Origin: Candidatus Magasanikiibacteriota bacterium | Lineage (GTDB): Bacteria > Patescibacteriota > Patescibacteriia > Magasanikbacterales > GWA2-37-8 | Direction: 5' to 3' | Assembly (NCBI GenBank): GCA_016182085.1 | Contig: JACOYB010000005.1 | Location: 66,061 to 130,060, forward strand | DNA length: 64,000 nucleotides | Notes under the pieces: model-generated | Database searches by the model: none | What the model was told of the DNA's origin: nothing | The model's input: only the letters and a program-made list of their open reading frames with translations | Program-made: the position numbers and the translations under genes | Shown: piece after piece, positions 5,312 to 24,937 of the stretch | Layout of the letters: each line of letters begins with the position of its first letter | Numbering within the stretch: the first letter of the stretch is position 1

Positions 5312-7220
5312 AAAAAGTCTGCAGCCATTGTTTTAAGAGCAGTAAACACCATAAATGATTGCTGTAATCTGCCCGTCCTTTTTTATGGTCTTCCAAAAGT
5401 TTTATAATACAATTTTTATTAAAATATTTATACAGTAAACTATCCGAAACAATCAAACTATCATAGACATAACTGTATAGTTCATTCCGCATCCAAGATC
5501 CGATCGGGATGCCAAAACCAATTTTACGCCGAGCGATGATTTCAGTTGGAATTTTATCTTTTACTATCTCTTTCCAAATCCACTTTACTTGTCCGTTTCT
5601 AACTTTATATTGCTCGGGCAAACTCAAAGCCAATTCTACCAGCCGATGATCTAAAAATGGCGCGCGATTTTCCAAAGCGGAAATCATGCTGGCAAAATCA
5701 ACTTTTAACAAATAATTATCCCCCAGCCTGCCAACGATATCGGCAAGCATCGCTTTATTCATTGTGCCGTAATGCGAAACCCTGCCTTCTCCCCACCACT
5801 GGCGCATTAATTTTTCAGACAAATCAAAATCAATCTGTTCTTTGAGCTCATCAGAATATAAATCGTCTTTGGTCAAATAAAAATGGCTTTGTTTTAATTC
5901 TTTTTTCCAAATTGCGTAATAATCAACATAGGCTTGCTCTAAACTATGGCTCAAGACCTCGGCGCGATAAAATAATTTTTGCAACGATAGTTGGCCGGTA
6001 GCCGCCAGCAACTTTGCGGCTTGTGGAATAATTTTTTTATAAACCACGCCTGGCAAACTTTGATAATTCTTTAAATTTCTTAGAAAAGAATGGTTTGGAT
6101 AACCGCCAAAACATTCATCGGCGCCATCTCCGGTCAAAACCACGGTAACATGCTTTTTTGTTTCCTTGGCCATAATCATCGTTGGCAAGGCGGCATTATC
6201 AAAAAATGGCTCCTCAAATTGATGCACGAGCGCTGGCAAATTTTCTACAACATTTGGCTCAATAATAATTTCCGTATGATCTGTCTTAAATCGATCTGCG
6301 ACAAGTTTTGCAAAAGACAGCTCGCTTTGAGCCTGGTCTTTAAGACCAACTGAGAAAGTTTTTATACTGCTTGTAGATACTTCCGCCATCGCGGCCACAA
6401 CCGAACTTGAATCTAAACCGCCGCTTAAAAAAGCGCCTACCGGCACGTCGCTAATCATTCTGCCTTTAATTGAATCTTTAAATATATCCCAAATATCTTT
6501 TTTCCATTCTTCCAGCGACTTATTTTTATTTTCTTTGGCATAATCAAAAGCTTGCCAGTATGGAGTAACAGAAATATTTCCTTGTCGCCAAATTAAATAA
6601 TGGCCGGCTGGCAATTTTTTAATATGTTTAAATCCGGTCTGGGGCGCTGGCACAAACCGATAGGTCATGGCCAAATCTACCGCCTGCCAATCTGGTTCTC
6701 TGGCCACGCTTGGGTCTATTAAAATTGATTTTAGTTCGGAGGCAAAAATAAATTTCTCTTGATCTGCATAATACTTAAATGGTTTTTCACCCAATCTATC
6801 CCTGGCTGCAAATAAAGTTTGTTCTTGATTATCCCAAATCGCAAACGCAAACATGCCGTTTAACTTATCCAAACATTTTTCTTTCCACTGAATATATGCG
6901 TTTAATAACACCTCTGTATCGCTTTGCGTGTTAAAACTCCAACCCAAGCCGATCAGCTCATTCTTAATTTGTTCGTAATTATAAATTTCACCATTAAAGG
7001 TAATGATAAAACGGCTATCCCGGCTCAGTTTGGGCTGATGACCGCCTGGCGACAAATCAATAATCGCCAAACGACGATGTCCCAAAGCCACAGTCTCTGA
7101 TTGGTTCATCCAGGTGCCATCGCTTTCTGGACCGCGATGCCGCACCGCCAAAAGCATCTTGGCAAAAAGATTTTTATCAATTTTTTGTTTGTTTTGAATA
7201 ACACCGACAATACCGCACAT
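5292..7220 (-). CDS. asnB: Asparagine synthetase (glutamine-hydrolysing) family amidotransferase
   Basis: MCGIVGV N-terminal nucleophile Cys. SGGLDSS PP-loop ATP pyrophosphatase motif. Start set so Cys is residue 2. Confidence 0.9.
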   Translation of the reverse strand: MCGIVGVIQNKQKIDKNLFAKMLLAVRHRGPESDGTWMNQSETVALGHRRLAIIDLSPGGHQPKLSRDSRFIITFNGEIYNYEQIKNELIGLGWSFNTQSDTEVLLNAYIQWKEKCLDKLNGMFAFAIWDNQEQTLFAARDRLGEKPFKYYADQEKFIFASELKSILIDPSVAREPDWQAVDLAMTYRFVPAPQTGFKHIKKLPAGHYLIWRQGNISVTPYWQAFDYAKENKNKSLEEWKKDIWDIFKDSIKGRMISDVPVGAFLSGGLDSSSVVAAMAEVSTSSIKTFSVGLKDQAQSELSFAKLVADRFKTDHTEIIIEPNVVENLPALVHQFEEPFFDNAALPTMIMAKETKKHVTVVLTGDGADECFGGYPNHSFLRNLKNYQSLPGVVYKKIIPQAAKLLAATGQLSLQKLFYRAEVLSHSLEQAYVDYYAIWKKELKQSHFYLTKDDLYSDELKEQIDFDLSEKLMRQWWGEGRVSHYGTMNKAMLADIVGRLGDNYLLKVDFASMISALENRAPFLDHRLVELALSLPEQYKVRNGQVKWIWKEIVKDKIPTEIIARRKIGFGIPIGSWMRNELYSYVYDSLIVSDSLLYKYFNKNCIIKLLEDHKKGRADYSNHLWCLLLLKQWLQTFFAYDKQ

Positions 7221-7345
7221 AAACAATATTTAGAAATTGTTATAAATAAATACTTCCGAAGAGCCTTTGGACAAGACAAGCAAAGCCCCAAGCATTATAG
7301 CGAGCAGCATGCCAAATAATATATTTTTTGCCATGTCCTTAGAAA

Positions 7346-8062
7346 TCATAATTCGCTTGATTCTCCGGCGGTTACGGGCACCGACAGGCCGCTTAAATAT
7401 TTCGCTTTATCGGATATTAAAAATAATACTACTTCGGCAACTTCTTCGGGCGCTACCAAATGTTTCATTGGATTTTTTTCAACCAAAAAATCATCCATAC
7501 GGCCCGGAATATCTTTATTAAGCTTTGTTCTCATAAAACCCGGAGCAACCGCATGTACGCGCACGCCATGAACGAGAAGCTCGTGGTTCATTTGTCGCAA
7601 CACGCCCCGCAAAGCATATTTAGCCGCGACATATCCGCCCATTTTACCAGATGTGTAATTTGGCTCAGTTACGGCTGAGGTAACTCCGATAACCGCGCCA
7701 TGTTTTTGATTTTTCATAACTTGGCCAATTTCTTTCAGCACATTAAAGCCGCCAAAAACCAACGTCTCAAAATCTTCCCGGAATTCTTCGGCGGATAAAT
7801 CCAGCATATGTTGGCGCTTGATTTCCGAGGTAGCAGTGTAAATACAGGCATCAATATTGTTAAACTTTTCAATAATTTGTCTTATGGCTTCTTGTACTTG
7901 CGCCATGTCTCTAATATCACACTTAAAAAATACATATTCTGAATTGGCATCAAAACTTCTGGATATAATCGCTACCGCGTATCCTTGCCCGGCTAATTTT
8001 TTTGCCACAGCCTTGCCGACATCGCCATATCCGCAAACTATAGCTACTTTAGGATTTTTCAT
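7346..8062 (-). CDS. Short-chain dehydrogenase/reductase (3-oxoacyl-ACP reductase-like)
   Basis: N-terminal GxGxxG-like Rossmann segment VAIVCGYGDVGKAVAKKL. SDR YxxxK region (YVAAKYAL). 238 aa. Confidence 0.85.
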   Translation of the reverse strand: MKNPKVAIVCGYGDVGKAVAKKLAGQGYAVAIISRSFDANSEYVFFKCDIRDMAQVQEAIRQIIEKFNNIDACIYTATSEIKRQHMLDLSAEEFREDFETLVFGGFNVLKEIGQVMKNQKHGAVIGVTSAVTEPNYTSGKMGGYVAAKYALRGVLRQMNHELLVHGVRVHAVAPGFMRTKLNKDIPGRMDDFLVEKNPMKHLVAPEEVAEVVLFLISDKAKYLSGLSVPVTAGESSEL

Positions 8063-8066
8063 ATGA

Positions 8067-8486
8067 TTATTTTAATAATTTTACCAGAGCCTTTCCTTCG
8101 ATCATGCGTTCGCCTGTTTCTATATTTTTAATGCTGGTTTCTATTTCTATAGTTTTAAAGGCCTCAACTTTTTGAGTTACCTTGCCCGATACTTCAACCA
8201 TAGTGCCTAAAAAAATTGGTTTTTTAAATTGCAATGTTTGCGATAGGTATAGACAATACTCACCCGGCAAATATACGCCAACAAGTTTTGAAAACAAACA
8301 GCCGCCGATCATACCGTGAGCCACGCGCCCCTTAAATTCAGTAGCGCGAGCATATTCACTATTTGTATGCAATGGGTTTTCATCTCCCGAAAAAGCCGCA
8401 AAGTTGTCTACCACTTCTTCCGTAACTGGAAAAGCAAAGCTGGCTGCATCGCCGATATTAATCTCGTCAAATGTGTACTTATTCAT
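8067..8486 (-). CDS. MaoC-like (R)-specific enoyl/hydroxyacyl dehydratase, hot-dog fold
   Basis: NPLHTNSEYARATEFKGRVAHGM is a MaoC dehydratase signature. 139 aa. Confidence 0.75.
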   Translation of the reverse strand: MNKYTFDEINIGDAASFAFPVTEEVVDNFAAFSGDENPLHTNSEYARATEFKGRVAHGMIGGCLFSKLVGVYLPGEYCLYLSQTLQFKKPIFLGTMVEVSGKVTQKVEAFKTIEIETSIKNIETGERMIEGKALVKLLK

Positions 8487-8715
8487 GGCTTTTGCCTCCT
8501 TTTGATTCTACCAGTTTAGTAGCGTCGCCAAAATTTTTAACCGCCATCGCTTCGTCAAACGTAAATTTAACTCCAAATGCTTTTTCAATTTCCGTAATTA
8601 AAATAATTGCATTAAGCGAATCCCAGGCCGGACAATTATCCGGAGATAGATCATCGTGTATATTTTCTACGGACATGCCCAGCACAGCTGCAAAAACAGT
8701 CTTTAACTTTTCCAT
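8479..8715 (-). CDS. Acyl carrier protein (DltC/ACP-like)
   Basis: 78 aa from the internal Met (MEKLKTVFAAVLG...). WDSLNAI provides a DSL phosphopantetheine-attachment serine. Four-helix ACP length. Overlaps the MaoC start by 8 nt. Confidence 0.75.
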   Translation of the reverse strand: MEKLKTVFAAVLGMSVENIHDDLSPDNCPAWDSLNAIILITEIEKAFGVKFTFDEAMAVKNFGDATKLVESKGGKSHE

Positions 8716-8883
8716 AATTAAAATAGCGTATAAATAAATGGGGCGAGCGGCGATGTCTGCGCAAACACAAGCAAAGTCGCGAACAAGAACAAGATAATTA
8801 TAATTGGCGCTAACCACCACTTTTTTCTTATTTTAAGAAAACTCCACATTTGTTTAAGCAACCTGAGTGTGTCGTTCATATTA

Positions 8884-10614
8884 TTAATTATTAATTATTA
8901 ATTCTATTTGAGTTCCGGCTGTTTCATGATTATTTAAGTACTCGTCAGCAGTTAGCTCGTAATCTACAGCCTCTTCATTGCTTTGTATTATTTTAAAATC
9001 CATGCTGGCATAAAAATCTTTAGCTGGAATATTTTTAGCAGTAGGGATATACTTTGCGGTTATACGTTCTACCCCCTTGGCGTGCAAATCGCGAATAATA
9101 TAATCCAAAAATGTTTTTTCAATTTCTCGGCCCATTACTCTGCAGCTCATTAAAAATGAATCCACCGCGGCAATTTTATCTTTTATTTCCACAATCGCCA
9201 TAATAGTTAATCCGTAATCGCCAAATTTATCTTTGACTGTCCCGCCATAGACCAAACCTTCTTTCATAAAACCTTCAACTGCGGTTTCCGCATACCTGCG
9301 CGTCGTTAAATTGAATTGGTTTGTTTTATTAGTAAGTTGGGCTAGGCGCTCTAACTGGTCTCTACTATTACACCTAATTTGCATAGATATGGCAAGCTGG
9401 GCCATATACTCAGCCGGGCTTTTAGCGGTAGAAATGATATTTTTTCGCGTTAACTCAGCCGCGTACATTTTGCCTTTGGACTTATCTTCTTCGGTTAATC
9501 TAAACTGGCTAAAAATATTAAGTGAAAATAAAGTCTGTATATATTCTTCGGGTGAAATCGTAAAATGCGGCACAATCACGTCTGGCAAACGACTTTTTAC
9601 CAGCTCTCTATTTACCGGATCATCATCAAAGAATACTAAACTATCCATGCCAATATTTAATTCATTGGCTATTTCTATTAAGTTTTGCGCCTTATCATTC
9701 CAATTTATTTTAGTCGCGGCAAAATGTTCTTTTTTTAAAATCATGTATGGATGTCTTTCAAACACCTCATCTACATCTGTCATGTTGTTACGGCTATTAA
9801 TCGCCAAGATCATGCCGCGGTTATAACATTCTAAGAGCGCTCTTTGAAAATTTTGAAAAGCTACGCCCGGATACTCCGGTCCTAGCGCGATACCGTTTAA
9901 ACCAACTTCTCCGACAATGCCGCCCCACAGCGTATTATCCAAATCCACTACAATACATTTTTTTGTTTTTCCGGCCAAAGCATATATATACGGCAGCCAC
10001 TCGTTTGCCACATAAAGCAGGAAATCATTGGTAAACGGCATGTCAAAAGCATAGAGCCCGCGATAATCGCGAGCGTTGCGCTCTCCAAAAAAATGAAGCA
10101 GCCTATTTATATCAAAAATAAATAAATTTTTTTGCTGCTGGGCCAGCTTGTGCAGCTGCGCGTTATATTCTTGTACTTGGCTATAAAAATGACTCTGATT
10201 AAATAAGTTGCCAAACGGTCCCATATATGGCCAGGCTAAAGTACAAAACACAACTGGACCATTTTGTATCTGGCAAAATTCTTGCACGCGCTCTATAATT
10301 TCAGAAAAATGAGAAATATCCTCCGAAAAAGCGGAAGTTATATAATGATTGATATCAAAAAAAATAAAAGTAATGTCGGCCGAATTAGAATGCAGCTGGC
10401 TATCTTTATTATGTAGAAAAAAATTATATTGCTTATATGGTACGCAGTAGAGTTGCGGATAAATATTACTTTCTAAGCAAACACCTACCAATAATTTTTG
10501 CAGCGTAGTATCGGTAAAATTCGTAACAAGATTAATGCGCATGCTAGCCGGGAAATCAGCGGCATTTCTCTGTTTTAGAGTATTGGCCAGTTCAATGTAT
10601 CGTAAAGTTTGCAT
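8884..10614 (-). CDS. FkbH-like protein (HAD-superfamily subfamily IIIC domain plus C-terminal GNAT-like domain)
   Basis: IVVDLDNTLWGGIVGE is the HAD DxDxT motif characteristic of FkbH/HAD-IIIC. 576 aa with an N-terminal SGNH-like region and a C-terminal acyltransferase-like region. It sits next to the ACP and AcpS. Confidence 0.7.
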   Translation of the reverse strand: MQTLRYIELANTLKQRNAADFPASMRINLVTNFTDTTLQKLLVGVCLESNIYPQLYCVPYKQYNFFLHNKDSQLHSNSADITFIFFDINHYITSAFSEDISHFSEIIERVQEFCQIQNGPVVFCTLAWPYMGPFGNLFNQSHFYSQVQEYNAQLHKLAQQQKNLFIFDINRLLHFFGERNARDYRGLYAFDMPFTNDFLLYVANEWLPYIYALAGKTKKCIVVDLDNTLWGGIVGEVGLNGIALGPEYPGVAFQNFQRALLECYNRGMILAINSRNNMTDVDEVFERHPYMILKKEHFAATKINWNDKAQNLIEIANELNIGMDSLVFFDDDPVNRELVKSRLPDVIVPHFTISPEEYIQTLFSLNIFSQFRLTEEDKSKGKMYAAELTRKNIISTAKSPAEYMAQLAISMQIRCNSRDQLERLAQLTNKTNQFNLTTRRYAETAVEGFMKEGLVYGGTVKDKFGDYGLTIMAIVEIKDKIAAVDSFLMSCRVMGREIEKTFLDYIIRDLHAKGVERITAKYIPTAKNIPAKDFYASMDFKIIQSNEEAVDYELTADEYLNNHETAGTQIELIINN

Positions 10615-10615
10615 A

Positions 10616-10948
10616 TTATTCCACTATAGCTACAGCCGCCGCGTGAGTATCGCTGTGGCTTAAACTTACCTGAGCCGTGAATTTACGTAGCTTTTCATTT
10701 AAAAACACAACTGTTGGCTTTAGACCGTCTTTTTTAATTTCAAAATCATGCATTGAAACTGGCAAGGGCATGGCTTTGATCACAGCTTCTTTGGCGGCAA
10801 ATCTTGAAGATATATAGGCAAATTTATCGGTTTTTTCTTCTAAAACTTTCATTTCCTCCGGCAAAAATACAAACTCTAAAAAACGGCTTAAACTAGCTAT
10901 TTTTTTAAACCGCTCAACCTCCACAATATCTATACCAATACCTTGCAT
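10616..10948 (-). CDS. acpS: Holo-ACP synthase (4'-phosphopantetheinyl transferase, AcpS type)
   Basis: MQGIGIDIVEVERF is the AcpS N-terminus. 110 aa. Confidence 0.85.
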   Translation of the reverse strand: MQGIGIDIVEVERFKKIASLSRFLEFVFLPEEMKVLEEKTDKFAYISSRFAAKEAVIKAMPLPVSMHDFEIKKDGLKPTVVFLNEKLRKFTAQVSLSHSDTHAAAVAIVE

Positions 10949-10985
10949 ACTATACTATAAAAATAAAGCTAAAAATAGCCGTTAT

Positions 10986-12167
10986 TTATATAAATATAGC
11001 AAAAATCTTCTGATAAAGCAACAACGAATCGCTGAGGCTGGAAGTGACAAAAAATGGCCAACCCAAGGTAACAAACCCGAATGTTACAATCACTCCGAAT
11101 CCGTATTTAAGCCATCCTGGCAAAAACTTGGGATTAAATGAGAAAACCTTGGTCTGCAAAATAGCCAGGCCCAAACCATGATATAGGCCGAAGAAAAGAA
11201 AATTCCAAGACGAACCATGCCATAAACCAATAAGTCCCATCGTAAATATCACGGCTATAGAAGTAATAAATTTGCTATTACGAAACCGAAAAACGAGCGG
11301 CATATAGATATAGTCGCGTATCCAGCTCGTGAGCGACATATGCCAGTATTTCCAAAAGCCAGCGAGATCTTTACGCAAATACGGCCAAGAAAAATTTATT
11401 GGCACCGTAATGCCAAATAGCAAGGCGCTGCCAATAGCTATATTACTTAATCCCGCAAAATCAAAATAAATACGGAATGAGTAAAAGAATAGACCGCTTA
11501 ACACCGCCAAACTGCTTGGCGCAATATTTGGCGAAGATAAAAATGTTGTTTGTTCTACCAAATTATCGGCGATAAAATATTTTTGCGCGTAACCCAGCAG
11601 GATAAAAAATATACCGGTAATAAATATATTTTTGGAAAATGACTGATCGTGAGTTGACTCAAAAAATTTATTAAACCGTTTGATTGGACCGCTGGCGAGC
11701 GTAGGAAAAAATAAAGCAAATGAAAAAAAATCCGCGAGCGTGTGTTTAGGCAATCGCCCATAGTACATTTCAACTAAATAATGGATAAATTCAAATGTAA
11801 AAAAAGAGATGCCGAGAGGTAAAAAAATCTTGCTTATTTCCCAATTACCTCCCATAAGATCCTTGGCCGTACTGACAAGTAAATTGCTATATTTAAAAAA
11901 TATTAAAACCAAAACTATCACTACTATCCCCTGCCATAAGTGTTTCTTTTTTTGTGTTTTATTTTCTACTTCTTGCATTCTTTTCCCTATCCAATAAGTA
12001 AACGCCGACAGAAGCAAAACTAAAGCTAAAAATTTCAAGCCGTTAAACCCATAAAATACGGCTGACGAAAAAAGAAGCGACGATAAACGCCATTTTTTTG
12101 GAGTTAGCCAAAATAAAGTTACGGCCCCAACCAAGAAAAACGGATAAATAAATGTGTTAAAAAGCAT
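10986..12167 (-). CDS. MBOAT family membrane-bound O-acyltransferase (DltB/AlgI-like)
   Basis: Polytopic membrane protein. WHGSSWNFLFFGLYHG contains the MBOAT catalytic His. N-terminus MLFNTF. Confidence 0.85.
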   Translation of the reverse strand: MLFNTFIYPFFLVGAVTLFWLTPKKWRLSSLLFSSAVFYGFNGLKFLALVLLLSAFTYWIGKRMQEVENKTQKKKHLWQGIVVIVLVLIFFKYSNLLVSTAKDLMGGNWEISKIFLPLGISFFTFEFIHYLVEMYYGRLPKHTLADFFSFALFFPTLASGPIKRFNKFFESTHDQSFSKNIFITGIFFILLGYAQKYFIADNLVEQTTFLSSPNIAPSSLAVLSGLFFYSFRIYFDFAGLSNIAIGSALLFGITVPINFSWPYLRKDLAGFWKYWHMSLTSWIRDYIYMPLVFRFRNSKFITSIAVIFTMGLIGLWHGSSWNFLFFGLYHGLGLAILQTKVFSFNPKFLPGWLKYGFGVIVTFGFVTLGWPFFVTSSLSDSLLLYQKIFAIFI

Positions 12168-12168
12168 A

Positions 12169-13311
12169 CTATTTCACAAGCTCCTTATAGCCGTTCGCGG
12201 TTTTTATAAAATTAACTAAAGACTCGGCAACTTGTTTGTGCCCGGTTTTATTAAAATGTATTTCATCAATAAAATTACTGCTAGCCACTGCCTGCGCAGC
12301 ATCTAAATCAATTATGTTGGCATTTTTATACAGGCCTAAAATAAATTTTTTGTTTTTACCGTACTCTGCCTGGGGTCTTTGCAGCTTGGTAACTTCAGGA
12401 CTGCGCGGGGTCAAATAAAAAATCGCTGGAATATTTGTAGCGGCAATATAACCGGCTAAAGCTTGGGAAACGCAGCTGTTAATTGACGGTTTGAGCTCTT
12501 CTACTTTTCCCTCATGAATATTAATATTATTAACCGGGAAATCTTCTTTGGGTTTAAAAATATCGCGCCAAACCACCTGCTTCTGGCCAGACTTAAACAG
12601 CTCAAGCGCGCCATTTAAAACATTAGAGAAAAAAAGAGGAAAAGGCTTGCCAAATAACGCATAATTTATTTCATCTTTATATTTTAGCAAAGGGATATGT
12701 GGAGCAATATCTATAAATATTTCATAGGGTTCTCGGAGTTCATACTGGCTCAAACAACCTTCAACCGCGCTGCTTTCTTTAAAAACATTGCGATAATTGG
12801 CAGACAACAGTCTATGTACGCGTAAATATTTTTTCCTATCTTCCTTTGCCCCAGCTACCGCATCCGCCTTTAGATAATCAGAATTTATATCAATCACAAA
12901 TAGATCAGCTTGATCTTTAAGCAGCGTTGTAATAATTAAAACGTCCAAAGGATGCGCGGATGGAAAAGAAAAGTTATATACCGACACGCCACCGGCAATA
13001 TGCCGGGCAAATTGAAAAGGTATCGTATCTTCGGCGTCGGTTATCCCCGGAGCGCCCCACATAGAGCTGGCTCCTAAAAATATTATTTTTTTATTTTTAT
13101 CCCGCTTAACTGCTTCAATTTTATTTTTTATTTCTCCGTATGATGTCGGGCTGTGCAAGCGCTTATAATTGGTCGGGCTATTTTTAAAAATAAAAAAGAT
13201 AGCTATATTAACTACTATAAAAAAAATAACAAAACTAACGAGCGAACTCCACTTTAAAAAGGCGAGTATTTTAGGGTAGTTTTTTTGATTCATGCTATGG
13301 TAACGAAACAA
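12169..13311 (-). CDS. DltD/AlgJ-like membrane-anchored SGNH-fold protein (MBOAT partner)
   Basis: N-terminal TM helix, then IIFLGASSMWG, a GxSxxxG-like SGNH block I. Immediately follows the MBOAT gene with a 1-nt gap. Confidence 0.5.
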   Translation of the reverse strand: MFRYHSMNQKNYPKILAFLKWSSLVSFVIFFIVVNIAIFFIFKNSPTNYKRLHSPTSYGEIKNKIEAVKRDKNKKIIFLGASSMWGAPGITDAEDTIPFQFARHIAGGVSVYNFSFPSAHPLDVLIITTLLKDQADLFVIDINSDYLKADAVAGAKEDRKKYLRVHRLLSANYRNVFKESSAVEGCLSQYELREPYEIFIDIAPHIPLLKYKDEINYALFGKPFPLFFSNVLNGALELFKSGQKQVVWRDIFKPKEDFPVNNINIHEGKVEELKPSINSCVSQALAGYIAATNIPAIFYLTPRSPEVTKLQRPQAEYGKNKKFILGLYKNANIIDLDAAQAVASSNFIDEIHFNKTGHKQVAESLVNFIKTANGYKELVK

Positions 13312-14476
13312 TAAACTTGGCTAATTCTTCCGAAACTACAATATGTCCTTTTTCAGAAAAATGATGAATGCCGGAGTTATACATTTCATTATGATTTAAA
13401 ACTTGCCGTTCTAACGATCCGCGCAAATTAAGCACCGCCGCACCCGGATTCAAGCCCTCGATTAATTTATTCTCCATGCCGACTGGATTAAACACATAGT
13501 CCTTTAATTTGGGATGGTTATTTTTAAACGCGTTTAACAAATCTTGATTGACTGTTTTACCCTCCGGTATAAGCATCACAATTAATTTCACTCCGTCTTT
13601 TTCTAATTCATTTCTAAAATTATTTATAAGTTCAGAACTAAACGCCGCATGCTTAGCCCTCTCGCTATCTAGCGGATCTAAATAATAATAGTCCCAGTGA
13701 GGTAAATTCAAGCCGGCCTCATCTACCGGCACTGGCGGTCGGAAAAGGCCTAATGTGACAGCTAAATTATTTAAAACCGGCAACGTGCGCACCGCTTTAT
13801 CCATAAATCGAACGATCGCAAGCTTTCGATAAATTTTATCCTTTAGCGCTAAAAAGTCTTTGCCTTTTACAGCCCCATACTGCGGCACCGCATCCCAATC
13901 TGCCGTGCTCGAAGAGAGTAATTTTTCTCTATCTTCAAAATAATAGCCATTGTCGCTAATGTCATTGCCGAGATAAAAACTTAATACCACAACATCAGGA
14001 TGATACTGGCTTGCATATTTGCTGTAATATTTCATTTCATCGGCTGTACCCATGCCTCCAATGCCAAAATTTAATACCTCGGCGGATTTATATGAAGAAC
14101 TGGGATTAGAAGCAAGCGAACTTTGCAAATTATTTTTTAATAAATAAACATAGGTTTTTTCATAATCAATCTGAATGCCCTGCGCGAAAGAATCGCCAAG
14201 TACCGCCACTCTCAAGGCACCCTCGTTTTTTTCCTTTATAAATTCTTCGCCCACAAATCCAAGACTGTTAGTTTTTACATGCACTTTTCTTTTTACTTCC
14301 CCGTCATAACGGCCCCGATCAACATTAGTTTTATGGGTTACAAATCCATCTTCATTAATCCGAGTTAACATATCAAAATCAGTTGGATCAAACATTCTCA
14401 AAAAAAACTCTATGCCTATAAGCGATAGTAAAAGCGCAATTACCAAAGTTAAAATATTTTTTTTAGCCTCTGTCAT
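13295..14476 (-). CDS. SGNH/GDSL-type hydrolase or acyltransferase, membrane anchored
   Basis: N-terminal TM helix. RVAVLGDSFAQG has a GDS block I motif. 393 aa. Confidence 0.6.
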   Translation of the reverse strand: MTEAKKNILTLVIALLLSLIGIEFFLRMFDPTDFDMLTRINEDGFVTHKTNVDRGRYDGEVKRKVHVKTNSLGFVGEEFIKEKNEGALRVAVLGDSFAQGIQIDYEKTYVYLLKNNLQSSLASNPSSSYKSAEVLNFGIGGMGTADEMKYYSKYASQYHPDVVVLSFYLGNDISDNGYYFEDREKLLSSSTADWDAVPQYGAVKGKDFLALKDKIYRKLAIVRFMDKAVRTLPVLNNLAVTLGLFRPPVPVDEAGLNLPHWDYYYLDPLDSERAKHAAFSSELINNFRNELEKDGVKLIVMLIPEGKTVNQDLLNAFKNNHPKLKDYVFNPVGMENKLIEGLNPGAAVLNLRGSLERQVLNHNEMYNSGIHHFSEKGHIVVSEELAKFIVSLP

Positions 14477-14484
14477 ACTTATTT

Positions 14485-16287
14485 TTAATCCAATTTAAAC
14501 TTGCCCAAATATTTGTTCATTTTTTCTTTATCAACGAGCTGCTGGTTATCCTGTTTGGATATAATATAATTTCCCATAACTAAATAATCCATAAATGTAT
14601 GGAGGAACGTATTAAACGCGTCTTGAGGCGACATAACAATCGGCTCACCCCTTACATTAAAGGAAGTGTTAATAATAATCGGACAGCCGGTTTTCTTATA
14701 GAAAGCCTCTATTAAATCATAATACTTTTTATTTTGTTCAGGATTCACTGTTTGCACGCGCGCCGAATTATCAACATGAGTAATTGCCGGCACATCGGTT
14801 CTTTTTACGGGCGCGACCAGGAGCATGTACGGACTAGGCACGGTCAAATCAAAACACTCGGCGCTTTTATCTTCCAAAACGGTAGGGGCAAACGGCCTAA
14901 AACTTTCTCTAAATTTGATCTTTAAATTAACTTTCTGCCAATTCTCTTTATTTCTCGCGTCGGCAATGATAGACCGATTTCCCAAAGAGCGAGGGCCATA
15001 CTCCATTCTGCCTTGAAACCAGCCAATCACATTATTGCCATTTATCAAATTTGAAACTTGATCTATAAGATCATTATATTCTAATCGCTTATAAACTAGC
15101 TTTTTATCTTCTCCAATAATAGCCTTAACATCTTCTTCTAAGAATTTCTCAAGCTCGCTTTCAGAATATTCCGGTCCCAAATAAACGGTCTCCATGGTAC
15201 TGCCTTCCGGCAAAGGATAATTTTTATTTAACCTGTCAAAATAAACATACAAAGCTGCGCCTACAGCTCCGCCGGCATCGCCCGCAGCTGGCTGAATATA
15301 AATATTATCAAACCATTTTTTTTCTAAAATTTTTCCATTGGTTACGCAATTTAAAGCCACGCCTCCGGCTAAGCAAAGATTTTTGTACGGATATAGCGTG
15401 CGAGCTTGCGCAATAATTTTTAAAACAATTTCATTGGTAATTTTTTGCAAAGCGGCGGCAATATCTTTTTCTCTTTGAGTTAGCGGCGATTCAGGCTGGC
15501 GCGCGGGGCCGCCAAACAACTTATCAAATCTTCTGTTTGTCATGCGAAGTCCGTACTCGTAAGAAAAATATTTCATGTTAAGCTTAACGCTGCCATCATC
15601 TCTGATCTCAACAAGTTCTTTAAACGTATCATAATATTTATTTGGATCTCCATACGGAGCCAGGCCCATAACTTTATACTCGGCGCTGTTTACCTTAAAA
15701 CCTAAATAATACGTAAGCGCGGAATAAAACAAGCCTAAGGAATGAGGGAACTCCAGAGTGTGAGAAAGGTTGAGTTTATTGCCTTTTCCATAACCAAACG
15801 TGGTAGTATCAAATTCCCCGACTCCATCCATAGTTACCACAATCGCTTCGCTAAAACCGGAACAAAAATAAGCGCTGGCCGCGTGCGAATAATGATGCTG
15901 GGTAAATAATATGCTGCCCTTGTAACCGTCTAAAGCTTTTCTAATCCTACTCTCTACCCATAGTTTAGTTTTTAAAAATACAAGCATCGCCTTGAGGAAT
16001 GATAAAAACCCTAAAGGCCAAGTGCTAATATACGTCTTAAGCAAACGTTCAAATTTTATGAAGGGTTTTTCATAAAAAACCACATAGCTTAACTGATCGC
16101 TTGTAATGCCGGCAAAATCTAGGCAATATTTAATTGAATGCGCGGGTAGCGAAGAATCCTGCTTATCGCGGGTAAATCTTTCCTCTTGCACAGCCGCCAC
16201 TACTTTGCCATTTTTTATCAGCGCCGCGGCGGCATCGTGATAATCAAATGATAGGCCTAAAATATAAATATCTTGTTCTGACGACAT
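14485..16287 (-). CDS. Carbamoyltransferase (NodU/CmcH family)
   Basis: N-terminal YILGLSFDYHDAAAALIKNGKVVAAVQEERFTR (ASKHA/Kae1-like) and a C-terminal YrdC-like region, typical of O-carbamoyltransferases. Start set at the Met of MSSEQDIY. Confidence 0.8.
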   Translation of the reverse strand: MSSEQDIYILGLSFDYHDAAAALIKNGKVVAAVQEERFTRDKQDSSLPAHSIKYCLDFAGITSDQLSYVVFYEKPFIKFERLLKTYISTWPLGFLSFLKAMLVFLKTKLWVESRIRKALDGYKGSILFTQHHYSHAASAYFCSGFSEAIVVTMDGVGEFDTTTFGYGKGNKLNLSHTLEFPHSLGLFYSALTYYLGFKVNSAEYKVMGLAPYGDPNKYYDTFKELVEIRDDGSVKLNMKYFSYEYGLRMTNRRFDKLFGGPARQPESPLTQREKDIAAALQKITNEIVLKIIAQARTLYPYKNLCLAGGVALNCVTNGKILEKKWFDNIYIQPAAGDAGGAVGAALYVYFDRLNKNYPLPEGSTMETVYLGPEYSESELEKFLEEDVKAIIGEDKKLVYKRLEYNDLIDQVSNLINGNNVIGWFQGRMEYGPRSLGNRSIIADARNKENWQKVNLKIKFRESFRPFAPTVLEDKSAECFDLTVPSPYMLLVAPVKRTDVPAITHVDNSARVQTVNPEQNKKYYDLIEAFYKKTGCPIIINTSFNVRGEPIVMSPQDAFNTFLHTFMDYLVMGNYIISKQDNQQLVDKEKMNKYLGKFKLD

Positions 16288-16295
16288 ATGCAATA

Positions 16296-16526
16296 TTAAA
16301 ACTGATAGGTTAAATCTTCTATACCCTCGCCTGTTTCTTCCTTTGCATGCCAATATGATTCCGGCCTAACTTCCTTTGAAAAAAGTTTAATGACTTTTTG
16401 CACAATTGCGTATAAGCCAATAATAATAAAATAAAAGGCAAATAAAATAACAAACCCGTTGATCGTGGCTAAAACATGGGCGAACTTCATCCAGTACTTA
16501 TATACTATTTTAAAAAACTTTTTCAT
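16296..16526 (-). CDS. Small membrane protein (hypothetical)
   Basis: 76 aa ORF with one strongly hydrophobic helix (GFVILFAFYFIIIGLYAIV). It sits between genes on the same strand and fits once the carbamoyltransferase start is trimmed. Confidence 0.35.
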   Translation of the reverse strand: MKKFFKIVYKYWMKFAHVLATINGFVILFAFYFIIIGLYAIVQKVIKLFSKEVRPESYWHAKEETGEGIEDLTYQF

Positions 16527-18210: not shown

Positions 18211-19515
18211 TTAAATTTCTACGGCAAATTCTTTTCTAGTTAAGAAATAAATGGCCAGCGCGACGTTCCATAAAAAAGTAAAAATAGTAGCCATCGCAAA
18301 GGCATACGCTGCGCCCATTATACCATACATAGGAATAAAAACCATATTGGCCGCCAGATTAATCAGTATCTGCGCTACCCCCGAAATAGCCACCCAATGC
18401 GTCTTATTAAATACATTAATCACGAGCGAAAATGGCACGGCAAGCACGGTCAAGAGATATCCGTAAGCTAAAATTAAATAGACAGGCATTGAGGCTATAT
18501 ATTTATCGCCAAATAAAAACTGAATTAAATATTGAGAGGGGTAAATAATGATTCCTAAGCCCGCTACCACCACCAGCACCCATTTAAAACTTCTCTTTAC
18601 AAAAATTACCAAATCTTCTTTTTTGGTCAAGCTGCTTATTTTAGGCATAAGCACGGAAGTAATTGAACTGTACACTATCGGGAAAAACTGAATTAATTGC
18701 CATGCTACCGTAAATATAGCCACTTCAACCAAACCTAAAAGCCGGCTTACCATGACCTGATCAATACGGCTCACAAAAATGGACATAAAAGAACTAACTG
18801 TCAGCCAAAAACTAAACCGAGCCAATTGGGAATGTAATTTGTTCTTTATGCTTGCGTCAACCGTAACTTCCCGAAATTTTTCGGGAAAAACTTTAAAATT
18901 AGCTATAAACAATACCCAGGGCACTAAAATATATACTGACAAGTAAGCAAACAGATTTTTTACTCCGAAAAATAATAGGATTAATACTATTACTAAACGC
19001 AGAAAGCCTTTTAACGACTGCAGCGAGGCATGATAAAAAAACCTCTGTTTTGTCTGCAAATAAGTTGCTAAAAAACCGAGCAGAATTATGCCGCCAATTC
19101 CCAAGGACGCGAATGCTAAGTATGGTGTTAATTTTACTTGTCCTAACAAATATCTTGCGAGCGGATAAGCTAAAACCAAACCTGCCACGGTAAGAATGAT
19201 ACTTAAAGATACTCGCCAGCGCCAAATTGTTTTAAGCAATTGTTTTAGCTTATCCGGCTGATCAGTCGCTATATAATAGGGACCAAACCGCAACAACCCC
19301 ATATTCAAACCAAAATCAGATAATTCCGCCACGGTCATAAGCACTAACACGGAAAGAGAAAAAATCCCAAAAAGTTCTTGGTTAAAAATTTTAGCCAAGA
19401 CAATATTTAAAGCAAACAAAGACAACCCGTTTACCATTGAACCCGTATATACAAAAATTGTTTGATGCAACGCCTTTTTTTGAAGAATTAATTTTAATCG
19501 TGAGACTATTTCCAT
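18211..19515 (-). CDS. Polysaccharide/oligosaccharide flippase (Wzx-like, MOP superfamily)
   Basis: 434 aa with ~12 predicted TM helices, which is Wzx-like length and topology. Located within the glycan locus. Confidence 0.65.
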   Translation of the reverse strand: MEIVSRLKLILQKKALHQTIFVYTGSMVNGLSLFALNIVLAKIFNQELFGIFSLSVLVLMTVAELSDFGLNMGLLRFGPYYIATDQPDKLKQLLKTIWRWRVSLSIILTVAGLVLAYPLARYLLGQVKLTPYLAFASLGIGGIILLGFLATYLQTKQRFFYHASLQSLKGFLRLVIVLILLFFGVKNLFAYLSVYILVPWVLFIANFKVFPEKFREVTVDASIKNKLHSQLARFSFWLTVSSFMSIFVSRIDQVMVSRLLGLVEVAIFTVAWQLIQFFPIVYSSITSVLMPKISSLTKKEDLVIFVKRSFKWVLVVVAGLGIIIYPSQYLIQFLFGDKYIASMPVYLILAYGYLLTVLAVPFSLVINVFNKTHWVAISGVAQILINLAANMVFIPMYGIMGAAYAFAMATIFTFLWNVALAIYFLTRKEFAVEI

Positions 19516-24922: not shown

Positions 24923-24937
24923 GAAAGCGGCCCGCTT

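What the first reader, a model, noticed from the sequence alone, without database searches (positions are those of the whole stretch)
7346..16353. Carrier-protein acyl module (SDR, MaoC, ACP, FkbH-like, AcpS) fused in one operon with MBOAT and two DltD/SGNH-like proteins: a Dlt-like export system with non-D-alanine cargo?
Nine consecutive same-strand genes with 1-40-nt gaps. They encode a 78-aa carrier protein with a DSL serine, its own holo-ACP synthase and an FkbH-like HAD-IIIC/GNAT protein. From the FkbH precedent (glyceryl transfer from 1,3-bisphosphoglycerate to an ACP), this could load a C3 unit onto the ACP. An SDR and a MaoC dehydratase could remodel an ACP-bound hydroxyacyl group. An MBOAT (DltB/AlgI fold) follows, then two membrane-anchored SGNH/DltD-like proteins and a carbamoyltransferase. 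In the canonical Dlt pathway DltA loads D-Ala on DltC and DltB/DltD move it across the membrane. Here there is no DltA-like adenylation enzyme; FkbH-type loading takes that position. The architecture suggests an extracytoplasmic glycan O-acylation route delivering a glyceryl- or hydroxyacyl-derived group. I am not aware of this exact gene combination being described.
Basis: partly seen in the sequence, partly recalled or inferred. Interest (0 to 1): 0.85.

Follow-up and report, generated by a model that had tools for sequence, protein, structure and literature searches.

The report
Dlt-like glycan acylation, FkbH-loaded carrier
An uncultured Patescibacteria (Magasanikbacteria) genome carries what looks like a complete counterpart of the Gram-positive D-alanylation (Dlt) machinery, except that its carrier protein is loaded by an FkbH-type enzyme with a three-carbon acyl group, probably lactyl, instead of D-alanine; this would be the first carrier-protein-fed membrane acyltransferase system with a cargo other than D-alanine.

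Summary
All nine genes are on the minus strand and pass or approach the expected family models. The two apparent gaps hold two conserved microprotein genes, each with one membrane helix and a C-terminal FxYxxF motif: 7230-7349 (FIYNNF) and 8718-8879 (FIYTLF, Pfam DUF5989). This is the acyl-shuttle motif of DltX.

The MBOAT is DltB-length and lacks the fused shuttle tail that long MBOATs carry. Comparison with close relatives splits the cluster into two modules.

1. A conserved Dlt-like core: DltD-like SGNH-B, short MBOAT, AcpS, FkbH, ACP, MaoC, SDR and the 39-aa DltX-like protein.
2. A separable module: SxtJ-like protein, carbamoyltransferase, SGNH-A and DUF5989. It occurs without any MBOAT elsewhere; DUF5989 lies next to a carbamoyltransferase in 66 of 80 metagenome loci.

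FkbH, MaoC and SDR most likely make lactyl-ACP, as in FR901464 starter-unit chemistry. The MBOAT, microprotein and SGNH-B would then pass this group to a surface glycan. The AcpS-FkbH-ACP-MaoC-MBOAT-SGNH arrangement recurs in at least 13 distinct Patescibacteria loci. I found no published description.

Verdict: a new variant of a known kind, with high interest. The cargo and the acceptor are inferred, not shown.

The parts
16296..16526 (-). 76-aa membrane protein, weakly SxtJ-like. First gene of the accessory (carbamoyl) module.
   Evidence: PF19588 SxtJ, E 0.0012, below cut-off. A 78-92 aa gene occupies the same position before the carbamoyltransferase in L085, L086 and L091-93. Annotated as hypothetical in the MAG.
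14485..16287 (-). NodU/CmcH-type carbamoyltransferase (accessory module). The probable start is 16287, not 16353.
   Evidence: PF02543 289.9 bits and PF16861 233.2 bits. Absent from L081/L082, which keep the whole Dlt-like core. Present without MBOAT or FkbH in L091-93.
13295..14476 (-). SGNH-A: membrane-anchored SGNH protein (accessory module).
12169..13293 (-). SGNH-B: DltD-like membrane-anchored SGNH acyltransferase (core module).
10986..12167 (-). Short, DltB-type MBOAT without a fused acyl-shuttle tail (core module).
   Evidence: PF03062 85.4 bits; TIGR04091 DltB 197 bits, below the 375 cut-off. Best PDB relatives are DltB 8jem and 6bug, E 2e-39. H276 and H317 are invariant. The protein ends where long MBOATs begin a ~100-aa extension that finishes in F[IL]YFQF.
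10616..10948 (-). Holo-ACP synthase (AcpS) dedicated to the cluster's carrier protein.
   Evidence: PF01648 51.5 bits; TIGR00516 61.6 against 59.8. Directly upstream of FkbH in 17 of 80 genome loci and in all Patescibacteria loci examined.
8884..10614 (-). FkbH-like loader: FkbH_N, HAD-IIIC phosphatase and a C-terminal acyl-transfer domain.
   Evidence: TIGR01686 297.6 bits (cut-off 146.65), TIGR01681 75.3 bits, PF21211. Invariant DLD (224-226, HAD motif I) and S490-C491-R492 in 27 relatives. PDB 3slr covers residues 21-373.
8718..8879 (-). 53-aa DUF5989 (SxtK-like) microprotein with one TM helix and C-terminal FIYTLF. It belongs to the accessory module although it sits inside the core.
   Evidence: PF19451 77.7 bits. 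The family has an invariant FIY at the C-terminus. Next to a carbamoyltransferase in 66 of 80 metagenome loci and next to an MBOAT in 1 of 80. Substitutions by codon position 90/22/243. The gene starts 4 nt after the FkbH stop and ends 2 nt before the ACP start.
8479..8715 (-). 78-aa acyl carrier protein with the phosphopantetheine serine (WDSL).
   Evidence: PF00550 33.3 bits. Nearest solved relatives are AcpP-type ACPs; no DltC appears among matches up to E = 1. Follows FkbH in most of the 80 genome loci.
8067..8486 (-). MaoC-type (R-specific) dehydratase.
   Evidence: PF01575 64.8 bits. The hydratase-2 motif SGDENPLH is visible in the sequence. Fused to the SDR in L046 and L057.
7346..8062 (-). 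FabG-like SDR ketoreductase.
   Evidence: PF13561 138 bits; TIGR01830 122 bits, below the equivalog cut-off. The YxxxK motif (YVAAK) is visible in the sequence. Absent from the cassette in L001, L175 and L176.
7230..7349 (-). 39-aa DltX-like microprotein with one TM helix and C-terminal FIYNNF. Proposed acyl-tyrosine shuttle of the short MBOAT.
   Evidence: Found. Conserved after the SDR in L081/L082, L083, L085, L086 and L087 with an invariant EVFIYNNF. It is the only FxYxxF microprotein in L081, which has the core but no accessory module. Substitutions by codon position 138/33/235. Its start overlaps the SDR stop. Not in the public protein collection.

Best explanation
The region encodes a Dlt-like, carrier-protein-dependent system. 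It would O-acylate a cell-surface glycan, made by the surrounding locus, on the outer face of the membrane.

Proposed steps:
1. AcpS phosphopantetheinylates the 78-aa ACP.
2. The FkbH-like enzyme takes 1,3-bisphosphoglycerate, removes the 3-phosphate and loads glyceryl onto the ACP.
3. The MaoC dehydratase removes water to give pyruvoyl-ACP. The SDR reduces it to lactyl-ACP.
4. The short DltB-type MBOAT passes the acyl group from the ACP thioester, at the cytoplasmic face, to the tyrosine of the 39-aa DltX-like microprotein (FIYNNF) at the outer face.
5. The DltD-like SGNH-B (Ser76, Asp343, His346) takes the acyl group from that tyrosine and esterifies a glycan hydroxyl.

The SxtJ-like protein, carbamoyltransferase, SGNH-A and DUF5989 microprotein form a second, separable module. 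It is most likely concerned with O-carbamoylation of the same glycan.

What is shown: gene content, family or fold membership, catalytic and shuttle motifs, and conserved synteny.
What is inferred: every chemical step, the identity of the cargo, the acceptor, and which microprotein works with which SGNH protein.
For: Family and motif evidence is.

DltX-like microproteins:
- Two conserved ORFs carry the motif.
- Both show coding-type substitution patterns.
- FXYXXF is the experimentally defined acyl-shuttle motif. It sits on a separate microprotein only in Dlt, where the MBOAT is short (PMC12148441). The window shows exactly that arrangement.

Natural presence/absence among close relatives:
- L081/L082 keep SGNH-B, short MBOAT, AcpS, FkbH, ACP, MaoC, SDR and the 40-aa microprotein. 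They lack the carbamoyltransferase, SGNH-A, DUF5989 and the SxtJ-like gene.
- L091-93 have the reverse: the accessory module without the core.

Recurrence: AcpS-FkbH-ACP-MaoC-(SDR)-MBOAT-SGNH partner is found in L001, L002, L012, L054, L174, L175 and L176 (long MBOATs ending FIYFQF), and in Clostridium loci L063 and L076.

Cargo chemistry:
- DH-KR proteins convert glyceryl-S-ACP to lactyl-S-ACP in FR901464 and lankacidin biosynthesis (PMC4765723).
- MaoC and SDR are fused into one protein in L046 and L057.

Context: a glycan locus with a Wzx-type flippase, GT2, GT1 and PMT_2 enzymes, a methyltransferase and AsnB.
Against: - There is no biochemical evidence for any step.
- SGNH-B and the 39-aa microprotein match no DltD or DltX sequence model. 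The SGNH-B model has only moderate confidence (pLDDT 66).
- The MBOAT scores below the DltB equivalog cut-off (197 against 375).
- The ACP resembles AcpP-type carriers, not DltC.
- In 73 of 80 FkbH loci from diverse phyla no MBOAT lies within 10 kb, so the cassette can work without one.
- The SDR is missing from the cassette in L001, L175 and L176. The final cargo may therefore differ between lineages (pyruvoyl or glyceryl rather than lactyl).
- MaoC enzymes are not the PKS-type DH domains used in the FR901464 precedent. The lactyl route is an analogy.
- L003 has the cassette and a DltD-like partner, but no MBOAT in the sequence available.
Confidence: 0.72

Rival explanations
1. The two halves are functionally unrelated neighbours. 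The FkbH-ACP-MaoC-SDR cassette supplies a small hydroxyacyl group for cytoplasmic N- or O-acylation of a sugar precursor. The MBOAT, microprotein and SGNH proteins form an ordinary acetyl-CoA-dependent O-acetylation system.
For: Most FkbH-ACP loci outside Patescibacteria lack an MBOAT (73 of 80). Some carry cytosolic candidates next to the cassette: a tandem GNAT in L057 and a PIG-L de-N-acetylase in L042. All characterised MBOAT-SGNH systems other than Dlt use acyl-CoA (PMC12148441).
Against: - No cytosolic acyltransferase is encoded in the operon.
- The MBOAT is of the short DltB type with a separate shuttle microprotein, an arrangement so far tied to carrier-protein donors.
- A complete long-MBOAT system that could carry out acetylation already lies in the same locus at 23426-26011.
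- MBOAT and cassette are contiguous, on the same strand and tightly spaced in at least 13 distinct Patescibacteria loci with two different MBOAT architectures.
Confidence: 0.13
2. There is one MBOAT with two output arms. Both microproteins (39 aa and DUF5989) are loaded by the single short MBOAT, and each hands the same acyl group to its own SGNH protein (SGNH-B and SGNH-A). Two positions or two polymers are thereby acylated. The carbamoyltransferase acts independently in the cytoplasm.
For: Both microproteins carry FxYxxF after one TM helix. In the window and in L086 the DUF5989 gene lies inside the carrier cassette, between FkbH and ACP. There are two SGNH proteins and two microproteins.
Against: DUF5989 is adjacent to a carbamoyltransferase in 66 of 80 metagenome loci and to an MBOAT in only 1. 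L091-93 have the carbamoyltransferase, DUF5989 and a GT2-GDSL fusion but no MBOAT or FkbH within 7 kb. In L085 and L087 the DUF5989 gene sits beside SGNH-A, away from the MBOAT cassette.
Confidence: 0.1
3. The cassette makes a secondary-metabolite or lipid building block (tetronate, methoxymalonyl or another glycerate-derived unit) rather than a glycan decoration.
For: All characterised FkbH proteins work in polyketide or tetronate pathways.
Against: The window and related loci contain no ketosynthase, FabH-like enzyme, FkbI/FkbG homologue or PKS. The cassette is embedded among glycosyltransferases and a flippase. The host is a small-genome Patescibacteria MAG.
Confidence: 0.03

Closest known systems
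Dlt pathway (DltA, DltB, DltC, DltD, DltX) for D-alanylation of teichoic acids in Firmicutes
   Same: It has a carrier protein with a Ppant serine and a short MBOAT whose best solved relative is DltB. It has a separate single-TM microprotein ending in FxYxxF, like DltX. It has a membrane-anchored SGNH protein structurally similar to DltD. All are in one operon (mechanism from PMC12148441).
   Different: There is no DltA-type adenylating enzyme. Loading is by an FkbH-type HAD/acyl-transfer enzyme, followed by MaoC and SDR tailoring, so the cargo is a C3 hydroxy- or oxo-acyl group and not D-alanine. A dedicated AcpS is included. The ACP is AcpP-like, not DltC-like. The MBOAT, SGNH protein and microprotein all fall below or outside the Dlt family models. 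The host is Patescibacteria, and the acceptor is presumably a Wzx-type glycan rather than teichoic acid.
PatA/PatB, AlgI/AlgJ/AlgX and WssH/WssI type MBOAT-SGNH O-acetylation systems
   Same: The overall logic is the same: MBOAT to acyl-tyrosine to SGNH to polymer. The related Patescibacteria loci (L001, L002, L012, L054, L174-176) use long MBOATs with the fused FIYFQF tail, as in PatA.
   Different: Those systems are reported to use acyl-CoA and to lack a carrier protein. Here the MBOAT is contiguous with an ACP, its synthase and its loader. In the window the shuttle motif is on a separate microprotein.
FkbH-dependent glycerate-derived units in polyketide pathways (FK520 methoxymalonyl-ACP, tetronates, and the FR901464/lankacidin lactyl-ACP starter)
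   Same: An FkbH-domain enzyme above the TIGR01686 cut-off works with a stand-alone ACP. A dehydratase plus ketoreductase pair parallels the DH-KR conversion of glyceryl-ACP to lactyl-ACP.
   Different: The dehydratase is a MaoC hot-dog protein and the reductase a FabG-like SDR, not PKS DH and KR domains. There is no PKS, FabH, FkbI or FkbG. The inferred destination is an MBOAT, not a ketosynthase.
SxtI-SxtJ-SxtK (carbamoyltransferase plus two small ORFs of unknown function) of saxitoxin clusters
   Same: The accessory module has a NodU/CmcH-type carbamoyltransferase. It is preceded by a small membrane protein with weak SxtJ similarity and accompanied by a DUF5989 microprotein. DUF5989-carbamoyltransferase adjacency is widespread. 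SxtJ and SxtK are described as uncharacterised (PMC2885083).
   Different: I did not verify that SxtK itself belongs to DUF5989; that equation rests on my memory. Here the module is in a glycan locus and includes an SGNH protein.

Membership tests
Dlt pathway | DltA-type adenylation enzyme (AMP-binding) that loads D-alanine on the carrier | tested here: not met
   No AMP-binding domain appears in any gene of the operon or in the flanking genes scanned from 96 to 22294.
Dlt pathway | Small carrier protein (DltC) with a phosphopantetheine serine | tested here: inconclusive
   PF00550 33.3 bits and a DSL serine are present. The nearest solved relatives are AcpP-type, with no DltC among hits up to E = 1. 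It is a carrier protein but not a DltC-family member.
Dlt pathway | DltB: MBOAT with a catalytic His, about 400 aa, lacking the C-terminal FxYxxF extension | tested here: inconclusive
   The architecture is met: 393 aa, invariant H317, no tail. DltB is the best PDB relative (E 2e-39). The TIGR04091 score of 197 is below the 375 equivalog cut-off, so it is DltB-like and not a DltB orthologue.
Dlt pathway | DltX: membrane microprotein with a C-terminal FXYXXF acyl-shuttle motif | tested here: met
   The 39-aa ORF 7230-7349 has one hydrophobic helix and ends in FIYNNF. It is conserved in five further distinct related loci and shows a coding substitution pattern. Only the defining motif and architecture were tested; no DltX sequence model matched.
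Dlt pathway | DltD: N-terminally anchored SGNH-fold acyltransferase with a Ser-Asp-His triad | tested here: inconclusive
   [not shown]
FkbH family (TIGR01686) | FkbH domain above the curated cut-off, with HAD motif I (DxD) and a conserved Cys in the C-terminal domain | tested here: met
   297.6 bits against 146.65. D224, D226 and C491 are invariant in 27 relatives. That C491 is the catalytic cysteine is assumed from its position, not tested.
FkbH family (TIGR01686) | Uses 1,3-bisphosphoglycerate and transfers glyceryl to an ACP | not testable with these tools
   This needs an enzyme assay. A dedicated ACP gene follows the FkbH gene (directly or after one microprotein gene) in most of the 80 loci, which is consistent.
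MBOAT-SGNH O-acetyltransferases (PatA/AlgI type) | MBOAT with two extra C-terminal TM helices ending in FXYXXF | tested here: not met
   The window's 393-aa MBOAT ends before the extension. The feature is met by the second MBOAT at 23426-24922 and by the MBOATs of L001, L002, L012, L054 and L063.
Pfam DUF5989 (PF19451) | Score above the gathering cut-off | tested here: met
   The 53-aa ORF 8718-8879 scores 77.7 bits against 27. The 39-aa ORF scores only 15.2 bits (E 0.024) and is not a member.
NodU/CmcH carbamoyltransferases | Carbam_trans_N plus Carbam_trans_C domains | tested here: met
   289.9 and 233.2 bits. The NodU equivalog model is far below its cut-off (142.8 against 1000), so the substrate is unknown.

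The most novel reading that the evidence does not exclude
The locus holds two parallel tyrosine-shuttle systems.

The first is the ACP-fed MBOAT route. Lactyl may act as an uncharged isostere of D-alanyl.

The second is the widespread carbamoyltransferase, SxtJ, DUF5989 (FIYT[IL]F) and SGNH-A set. It would be a previously unrecognised, MBOAT-independent machine in which the DUF5989 tyrosine carries a carbamoyl group to an extracytoplasmic SGNH transferase. That would give the long-unexplained SxtJ/SxtK-type genes a function and define a new way of carbamoylating surface polymers.
Probability: 0.2. Interest if true: 0.9.

Novelty: new variant of a known kind. Interest (0 to 1): 0.78.

Why it matters
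The current view is that Dlt is the only MBOAT-SGNH pathway fed by a carrier protein, and that only Dlt uses a separate shuttle microprotein (PMC12148441). This locus and its relatives suggest something broader in Patescibacteria, DPANN archaea and some clostridia. Carrier-protein-fed MBOAT systems appear to be a wider class with a different loader (FkbH) and a different cargo drawn from glycolysis. They occur with both short and long MBOATs.

If true, four things follow.
- The set of chemical groups known to be exported onto cell-surface polymers grows.
- There is a concrete, testable handle on the almost unknown surface chemistry of candidate-phyla-radiation bacteria.
- A primary-metabolism role emerges for the many 'HAD-IIIC/FkbH-like' genes found in polysaccharide loci.
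- A natural system becomes available for asking how MBOATs recognise carrier proteins as opposed to CoA donors.

The side observation on DUF5989 may explain a gene pair (SxtJ/SxtK type) that has lacked a function since 2008.

Tried and rejected
- An exact look-up of the window's FkbH protein found nothing. The organism was identified from a 100%-identical hit instead.
- tblastn and phmmer with SGNH-A and SGNH-B against the 80 FkbH genome loci found no homologues. The partner proteins of long MBOATs belong to a different family, related to the window's weakly DUF1574-like protein.
- A profile search of the SGNH-B family against PDB sequences found nothing even at E = 10. The fold had to come from a predicted structure.
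- NCBIfam gave nothing for either microprotein or for SGNH-B.
- Literature searches for FkbH+MBOAT+ACP, FkbH+polysaccharide+glyceryl, DUF5989, and MBOAT+SGNH+carrier protein found no description of this system. The one hit for FkbH+MBOAT was a review of the unrelated aeruginosin peptides and was not opened.
- I first considered the 76-aa protein's C-terminal LTYQF as a shuttle motif. I dropped this because the spacing does not fit FxYxxF and true FxYxxF microproteins exist.
- I first considered DUF5989 as the MBOAT's DltX. I rejected this after the metagenome survey and the L081 comparison.
It was repeated with six sequences.
- The CgnD match of SGNH-A was followed into the crocagin paper. It shows only that the closest solved relative is a slow SGNH-fold hydrolase from a cluster that also has a carbamoyltransferase, and I draw no functional conclusion from it.

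Full report
**Source and layout**

The window comes from a Candidatus Magasanikbacteria (Patescibacteria/CPR) metagenome-assembled genome. Its FkbH-like protein is 100% identical to an NCBI protein from a 162,753-bp contig.

The genes of the finding all lie on the minus strand. They sit inside a long same-strand glycan-biosynthesis locus. That locus holds a Wzx-type flippase (18211-19515), several GT2 and GT1 enzymes, a GT2-PMT_2 fusion, a methyltransferase and an AsnB-type amidotransferase.

**Check of the observation**

Each of the nine ORFs was scanned against Pfam and NCBIfam.
- SDR: adh_short_C2, 138 bits.
- MaoC dehydratase: PF01575, 64.8 bits.
- ACP: 78 aa with a WDSL serine; PF00550, 33.3 bits against 20.8.
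- AcpS: TIGR00516, 61.6 against 59.8.
- FkbH-like protein: TIGR01686, 297.6 against 146.65, plus HAD-IIIC and FkbH_N.
- MBOAT: PF03062, 85.4 bits.
- Carbamoyltransferase: both domains match strongly.

All of these are confirmed. In 27 relatives of the FkbH-like protein, the HAD motif DLD (224-226) and a Ser-Cys-Arg triplet (490-492) in the C-terminal domain are invariant.

The two 'SGNH/DltD-like' proteins are weaker by sequence. SGNH-A (13295-14476) barely passes Lipase_GDSL. SGNH-B (12169-13293) matches nothing. Neither matches the DltD model.

I scanned for small ORFs that end in the FxYxxF 'acyl shuttle' motif. This motif was defined experimentally for DltX and for the C-termini of PatA-type MBOATs (PMC12148441). 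The window holds three such ORFs, against a mean of 0.07 in 100 shuffles.

Two are minus-strand microprotein genes inside the cluster.
- A 53-aa gene at 8718-8879 ends in FIYTLF. It fills the supposed gap between FkbH and ACP, starting 4 nt after the FkbH stop and ending 2 nt before the ACP start.
- A 39-aa gene at 7230-7349 ends in FIYNNF. Its ATG overlaps the SDR stop codon.

Each has one hydrophobic helix, preceded by basic residues and followed by about 13 residues ending in the motif. Both are conserved in related contigs from other samples. Substitutions are concentrated at third codon positions: 138/33/235 for the 39-aa gene and 90/22/243 for the 53-aa gene. Neither sequence is in the public protein collection.

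The third ORF is a second, long MBOAT at 23426-24922 on the plus strand. A weakly DUF1574-like protein with SGNH-type motifs follows it.

**The MBOAT is of the DltB type**

- Its best solved relatives are DltB structures (E 2e-39, 139 bits). The long MBOAT of the same window scores 106 bits against the same structures.
- An alignment of short and long forms shows invariant histidines (H276, H317).
- The window protein and its orthologues stop exactly where the long forms begin a ~100-residue extension that ends in F[IL]YFQF.
- According to PMC12148441, a short MBOAT plus a separate shuttle microprotein is the hallmark of Dlt, the one system known to use a carrier-protein donor. The same paper states that other MBOAT/SGNH pathways lack a carrier protein and a DltX-like microprotein.

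**SGNH-B is DltD-like in fold**

- Its family is tiny: six relatives among 5.8 billion proteins.
- The family has an invariant Ser76 in a G-A-S block and an invariant Asp343-x-x-His346.

**The cluster is two modules**

Five further distinct loci with FkbH proteins 69-75% identical were recovered.
- L081/L082 contain SGNH-B, short MBOAT, AcpS, FkbH, ACP, MaoC, SDR and a 40-aa FIYNNF microprotein, and nothing else of the set. They have no carbamoyltransferase, SGNH-A, DUF5989 or SxtJ-like gene.
- L085 and L087 have both sets, cleanly separated: carbamoyltransferase (beyond the contig edge in L087, and preceded by a small 78-aa protein in L085), methyltransferase, SGNH-A, 53-aa microprotein and GT2, followed by the core.
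- L086 has the same interleaved order as the window.

The 53-aa protein is a clear member of Pfam DUF5989 (77.7 bits). That family has an invariant C-terminal FIY and the consensus RKKWWLAP...LLVFAQTSALAPFIYTIF.

In 80 metagenome loci that carry a DUF5989 gene:
- a carbamoyltransferase homologue is adjacent in 66;
- an MBOAT is adjacent in 1;
- SGNH-A-family genes are present in 21, often directly abutting the DUF5989 gene, although many contigs are short.

Patescibacteria loci L091-93 carry a GT2-GDSL fusion, a small 78-aa protein, a carbamoyltransferase, DUF5989 and AsnB. They have no MBOAT or FkbH within 7 kb.

I therefore assign the genes as follows.
- Accessory module: SxtJ-like protein, carbamoyltransferase, SGNH-A and DUF5989.
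- Dlt-like core: SGNH-B, short MBOAT, AcpS, FkbH, ACP, MaoC, SDR and the 39-aa microprotein.

**How widespread the core is**

In 80 genome loci found with an FkbH profile, an ACP gene lies next to FkbH in most. MaoC is detected in 27 and the SDR in 19, by tblastn at E<=1e-4. An MBOAT lies within 10 kb in 7.

The MBOAT-linked cases are:
- Doudnabacteria (L001), Saccharibacteria (L002, L012) and another Patescibacteria genome (L054);
- a Micrarchaeota contig with a short MBOAT (L039);
- two Clostridium MAGs (L063, L076).

Three more Patescibacteria loci, chosen only for contig length, all show AcpS-FkbH-ACP-MaoC-(SDR)-MBOAT-partner (L174-176). In these lineages the MBOAT is long and ends in FIYFQF or FLYFQF. 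The next gene is a membrane-anchored protein with G-[DST]-S and D-x-x-H blocks.

A carrier-protein cassette is thus joined to both MBOAT architectures. Outside these groups the cassette occurs without an MBOAT, sometimes beside a tandem GNAT (L057) or a PIG-L deacetylase (L042). This suggests cytosolic N-acylation there.

**Cargo**

- In FR901464 and lankacidin biosynthesis, a DH-KR protein converts glyceryl-S-ACP to lactyl-S-ACP (PMC4765723).
- Here a MaoC dehydratase (SGDENPLH motif) and a FabG-like SDR (YVAAK) follow the ACP.
- In a Rhodoferax locus and a Myxococcales locus the two are fused into one MaoC-SDR protein, which argues that they act consecutively.

I therefore favour glyceryl to pyruvoyl to lactyl. 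This is an analogy, since MaoC is not a PKS DH domain. The SDR is also missing from the cassette in L001, L175 and L176, so pyruvoyl or another C3 group may be delivered in some lineages.

**Mechanism proposed**

1. AcpS activates the ACP.
2. FkbH loads it.
3. MaoC and the SDR tailor the acyl group.
4. The short MBOAT moves the group to Tyr36 of the 39-aa microprotein at the outer face.
5. SGNH-B transfers it to a hydroxyl of the glycan made by the locus.

Gene content, motifs, folds and synteny are shown. Every transfer step, the cargo and the acceptor are inferred. I put 0.72 on the Dlt-like, ACP-fed reading and roughly 0.4-0.5 on lactyl as the final group.

**Rivals**

- The two halves could be unrelated neighbours, with the MBOAT using acetyl-CoA (0.13).
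- One MBOAT could serve both microprotein/SGNH pairs (0.10).
- The cassette could make a small-molecule building block (0.03).

The evidence for and against each is set out in the Rival explanations section.

**Comparison with known systems**

The system works like Dlt but is not a member of it.
- The DltA criterion is not met.
- The MBOAT is below the DltB equivalog cut-off.
- The ACP is AcpP-like.
- The SGNH protein and the microprotein match Dlt only in architecture, motif and fold.

It shares the loader and the likely tailoring chemistry with FkbH-dependent polyketide pathways, but has no PKS. I found no paper describing an FkbH/ACP-fed MBOAT system. I rate it a new variant of a known kind.

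**Side lead**

DUF5989 carries the DltX shuttle motif yet travels with carbamoyltransferases, small SxtJ-like membrane proteins and SGNH-A-type proteins, not with MBOATs. SxtJ and SxtK, next to the saxitoxin carbamoyltransferase SxtI, are described as uncharacterised (PMC2885083). That SxtK belongs to DUF5989 is my recollection and was not tested.

A carbamoyl-tyrosine shuttle to an extracytoplasmic SGNH transferase would fit the parts. It leaves unexplained how the group crosses the membrane. I give this reading about 0.2.

Noticed in passing
window 8718-8879 (-); loci L094-L173: Pfam DUF5989 is a family of ~50-aa single-TM microproteins with an invariant C-terminal FIY (consensus ...APFIYTIF). 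This is the acyl-shuttle motif of DltX. The gene lies next to a NodU/CmcH-type carbamoyltransferase in 66 of 80 metagenome loci, next to an MBOAT in 1 of 80, and next to SGNH-A-family genes in 21 of 80. This may be an unrecognised carbamoyl-tyrosine shuttle, which would explain SxtJ/SxtK-type genes.
   Followed up: partly
window 23426-24922 (+) and 24938-26011 (+): A second MBOAT-SGNH pair is transcribed divergently from the main locus. It consists of a 498-aa long MBOAT ending in FIYFQF and a 357-aa membrane-anchored partner with a weak DUF1574 match and G-S-S / D-x-x-H blocks. No carrier protein is nearby, so it is probably an ordinary acetyl-CoA-type O-acetylation system for the same glycan.
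   Followed up: partly
L046:11976-13214, L057:12004-13182: In a Rhodoferax MAG and a Myxococcales MAG, the MaoC dehydratase and the SDR that follow FkbH-ACP are fused into one 392-412 aa protein. This supports the idea that they act consecutively on the ACP-bound group.
   Followed up: yes
L004, L006, L008-L010, L019, L021, L037, L039: FkbH-ACP cassettes, often with AcpS, also occur in archaea: Nanoarchaeota, Promethearchaeota and Thorarchaeota (Asgard), Nitrososphaerales, Methanospirillaceae and Micrarchaeota. The Micrarchaeota contig L039 also has a short 390-aa MBOAT directly upstream of AcpS.
   Followed up: no
L001, L175, L176 against window 7346-8062: In several Patescibacteria loci the SDR is absent from the cassette, giving AcpS-FkbH-ACP-MaoC-MBOAT. 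The delivered group may therefore differ between lineages (pyruvoyl or glyceryl against lactyl).
   Followed up: no
window 12169-13293 (-): The SGNH-B family is extremely rare, with only six relatives at E<=0.001 among 5.8 billion proteins. Its neighbour SGNH-A has about 12,000 relatives in the representative library.
   Followed up: partly
[not shown]
   Followed up: partly
window 7230-7349 and 8718-8879 (-): Neither microprotein sequence is in the 15-billion-protein public collection, so gene callers appear to have missed both in this MAG. The 53-aa orthologue was called in some related contigs (L083, L084, L086).
   Followed up: yes
[not shown]
   Followed up: no
L003:13122-14276: A Saccharibacteria locus has AcpS-FkbH-ACP-MaoC-SDR followed directly by a 384-aa DltD-like partner. 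No MBOAT appears in the 10 kb upstream or the ~1.2 kb left before the contig end.
   Followed up: no
window 5292-7220 (-): The AsnB-type amidotransferase most likely starts at the ATG at 7220 (MCGIVG...), 9 nt after the 39-aa gene, and not at the upstream TTG listed for the ORF. Syntenic loci (L083, L086, L091-93) keep AsnB in the same position.
   Followed up: partly
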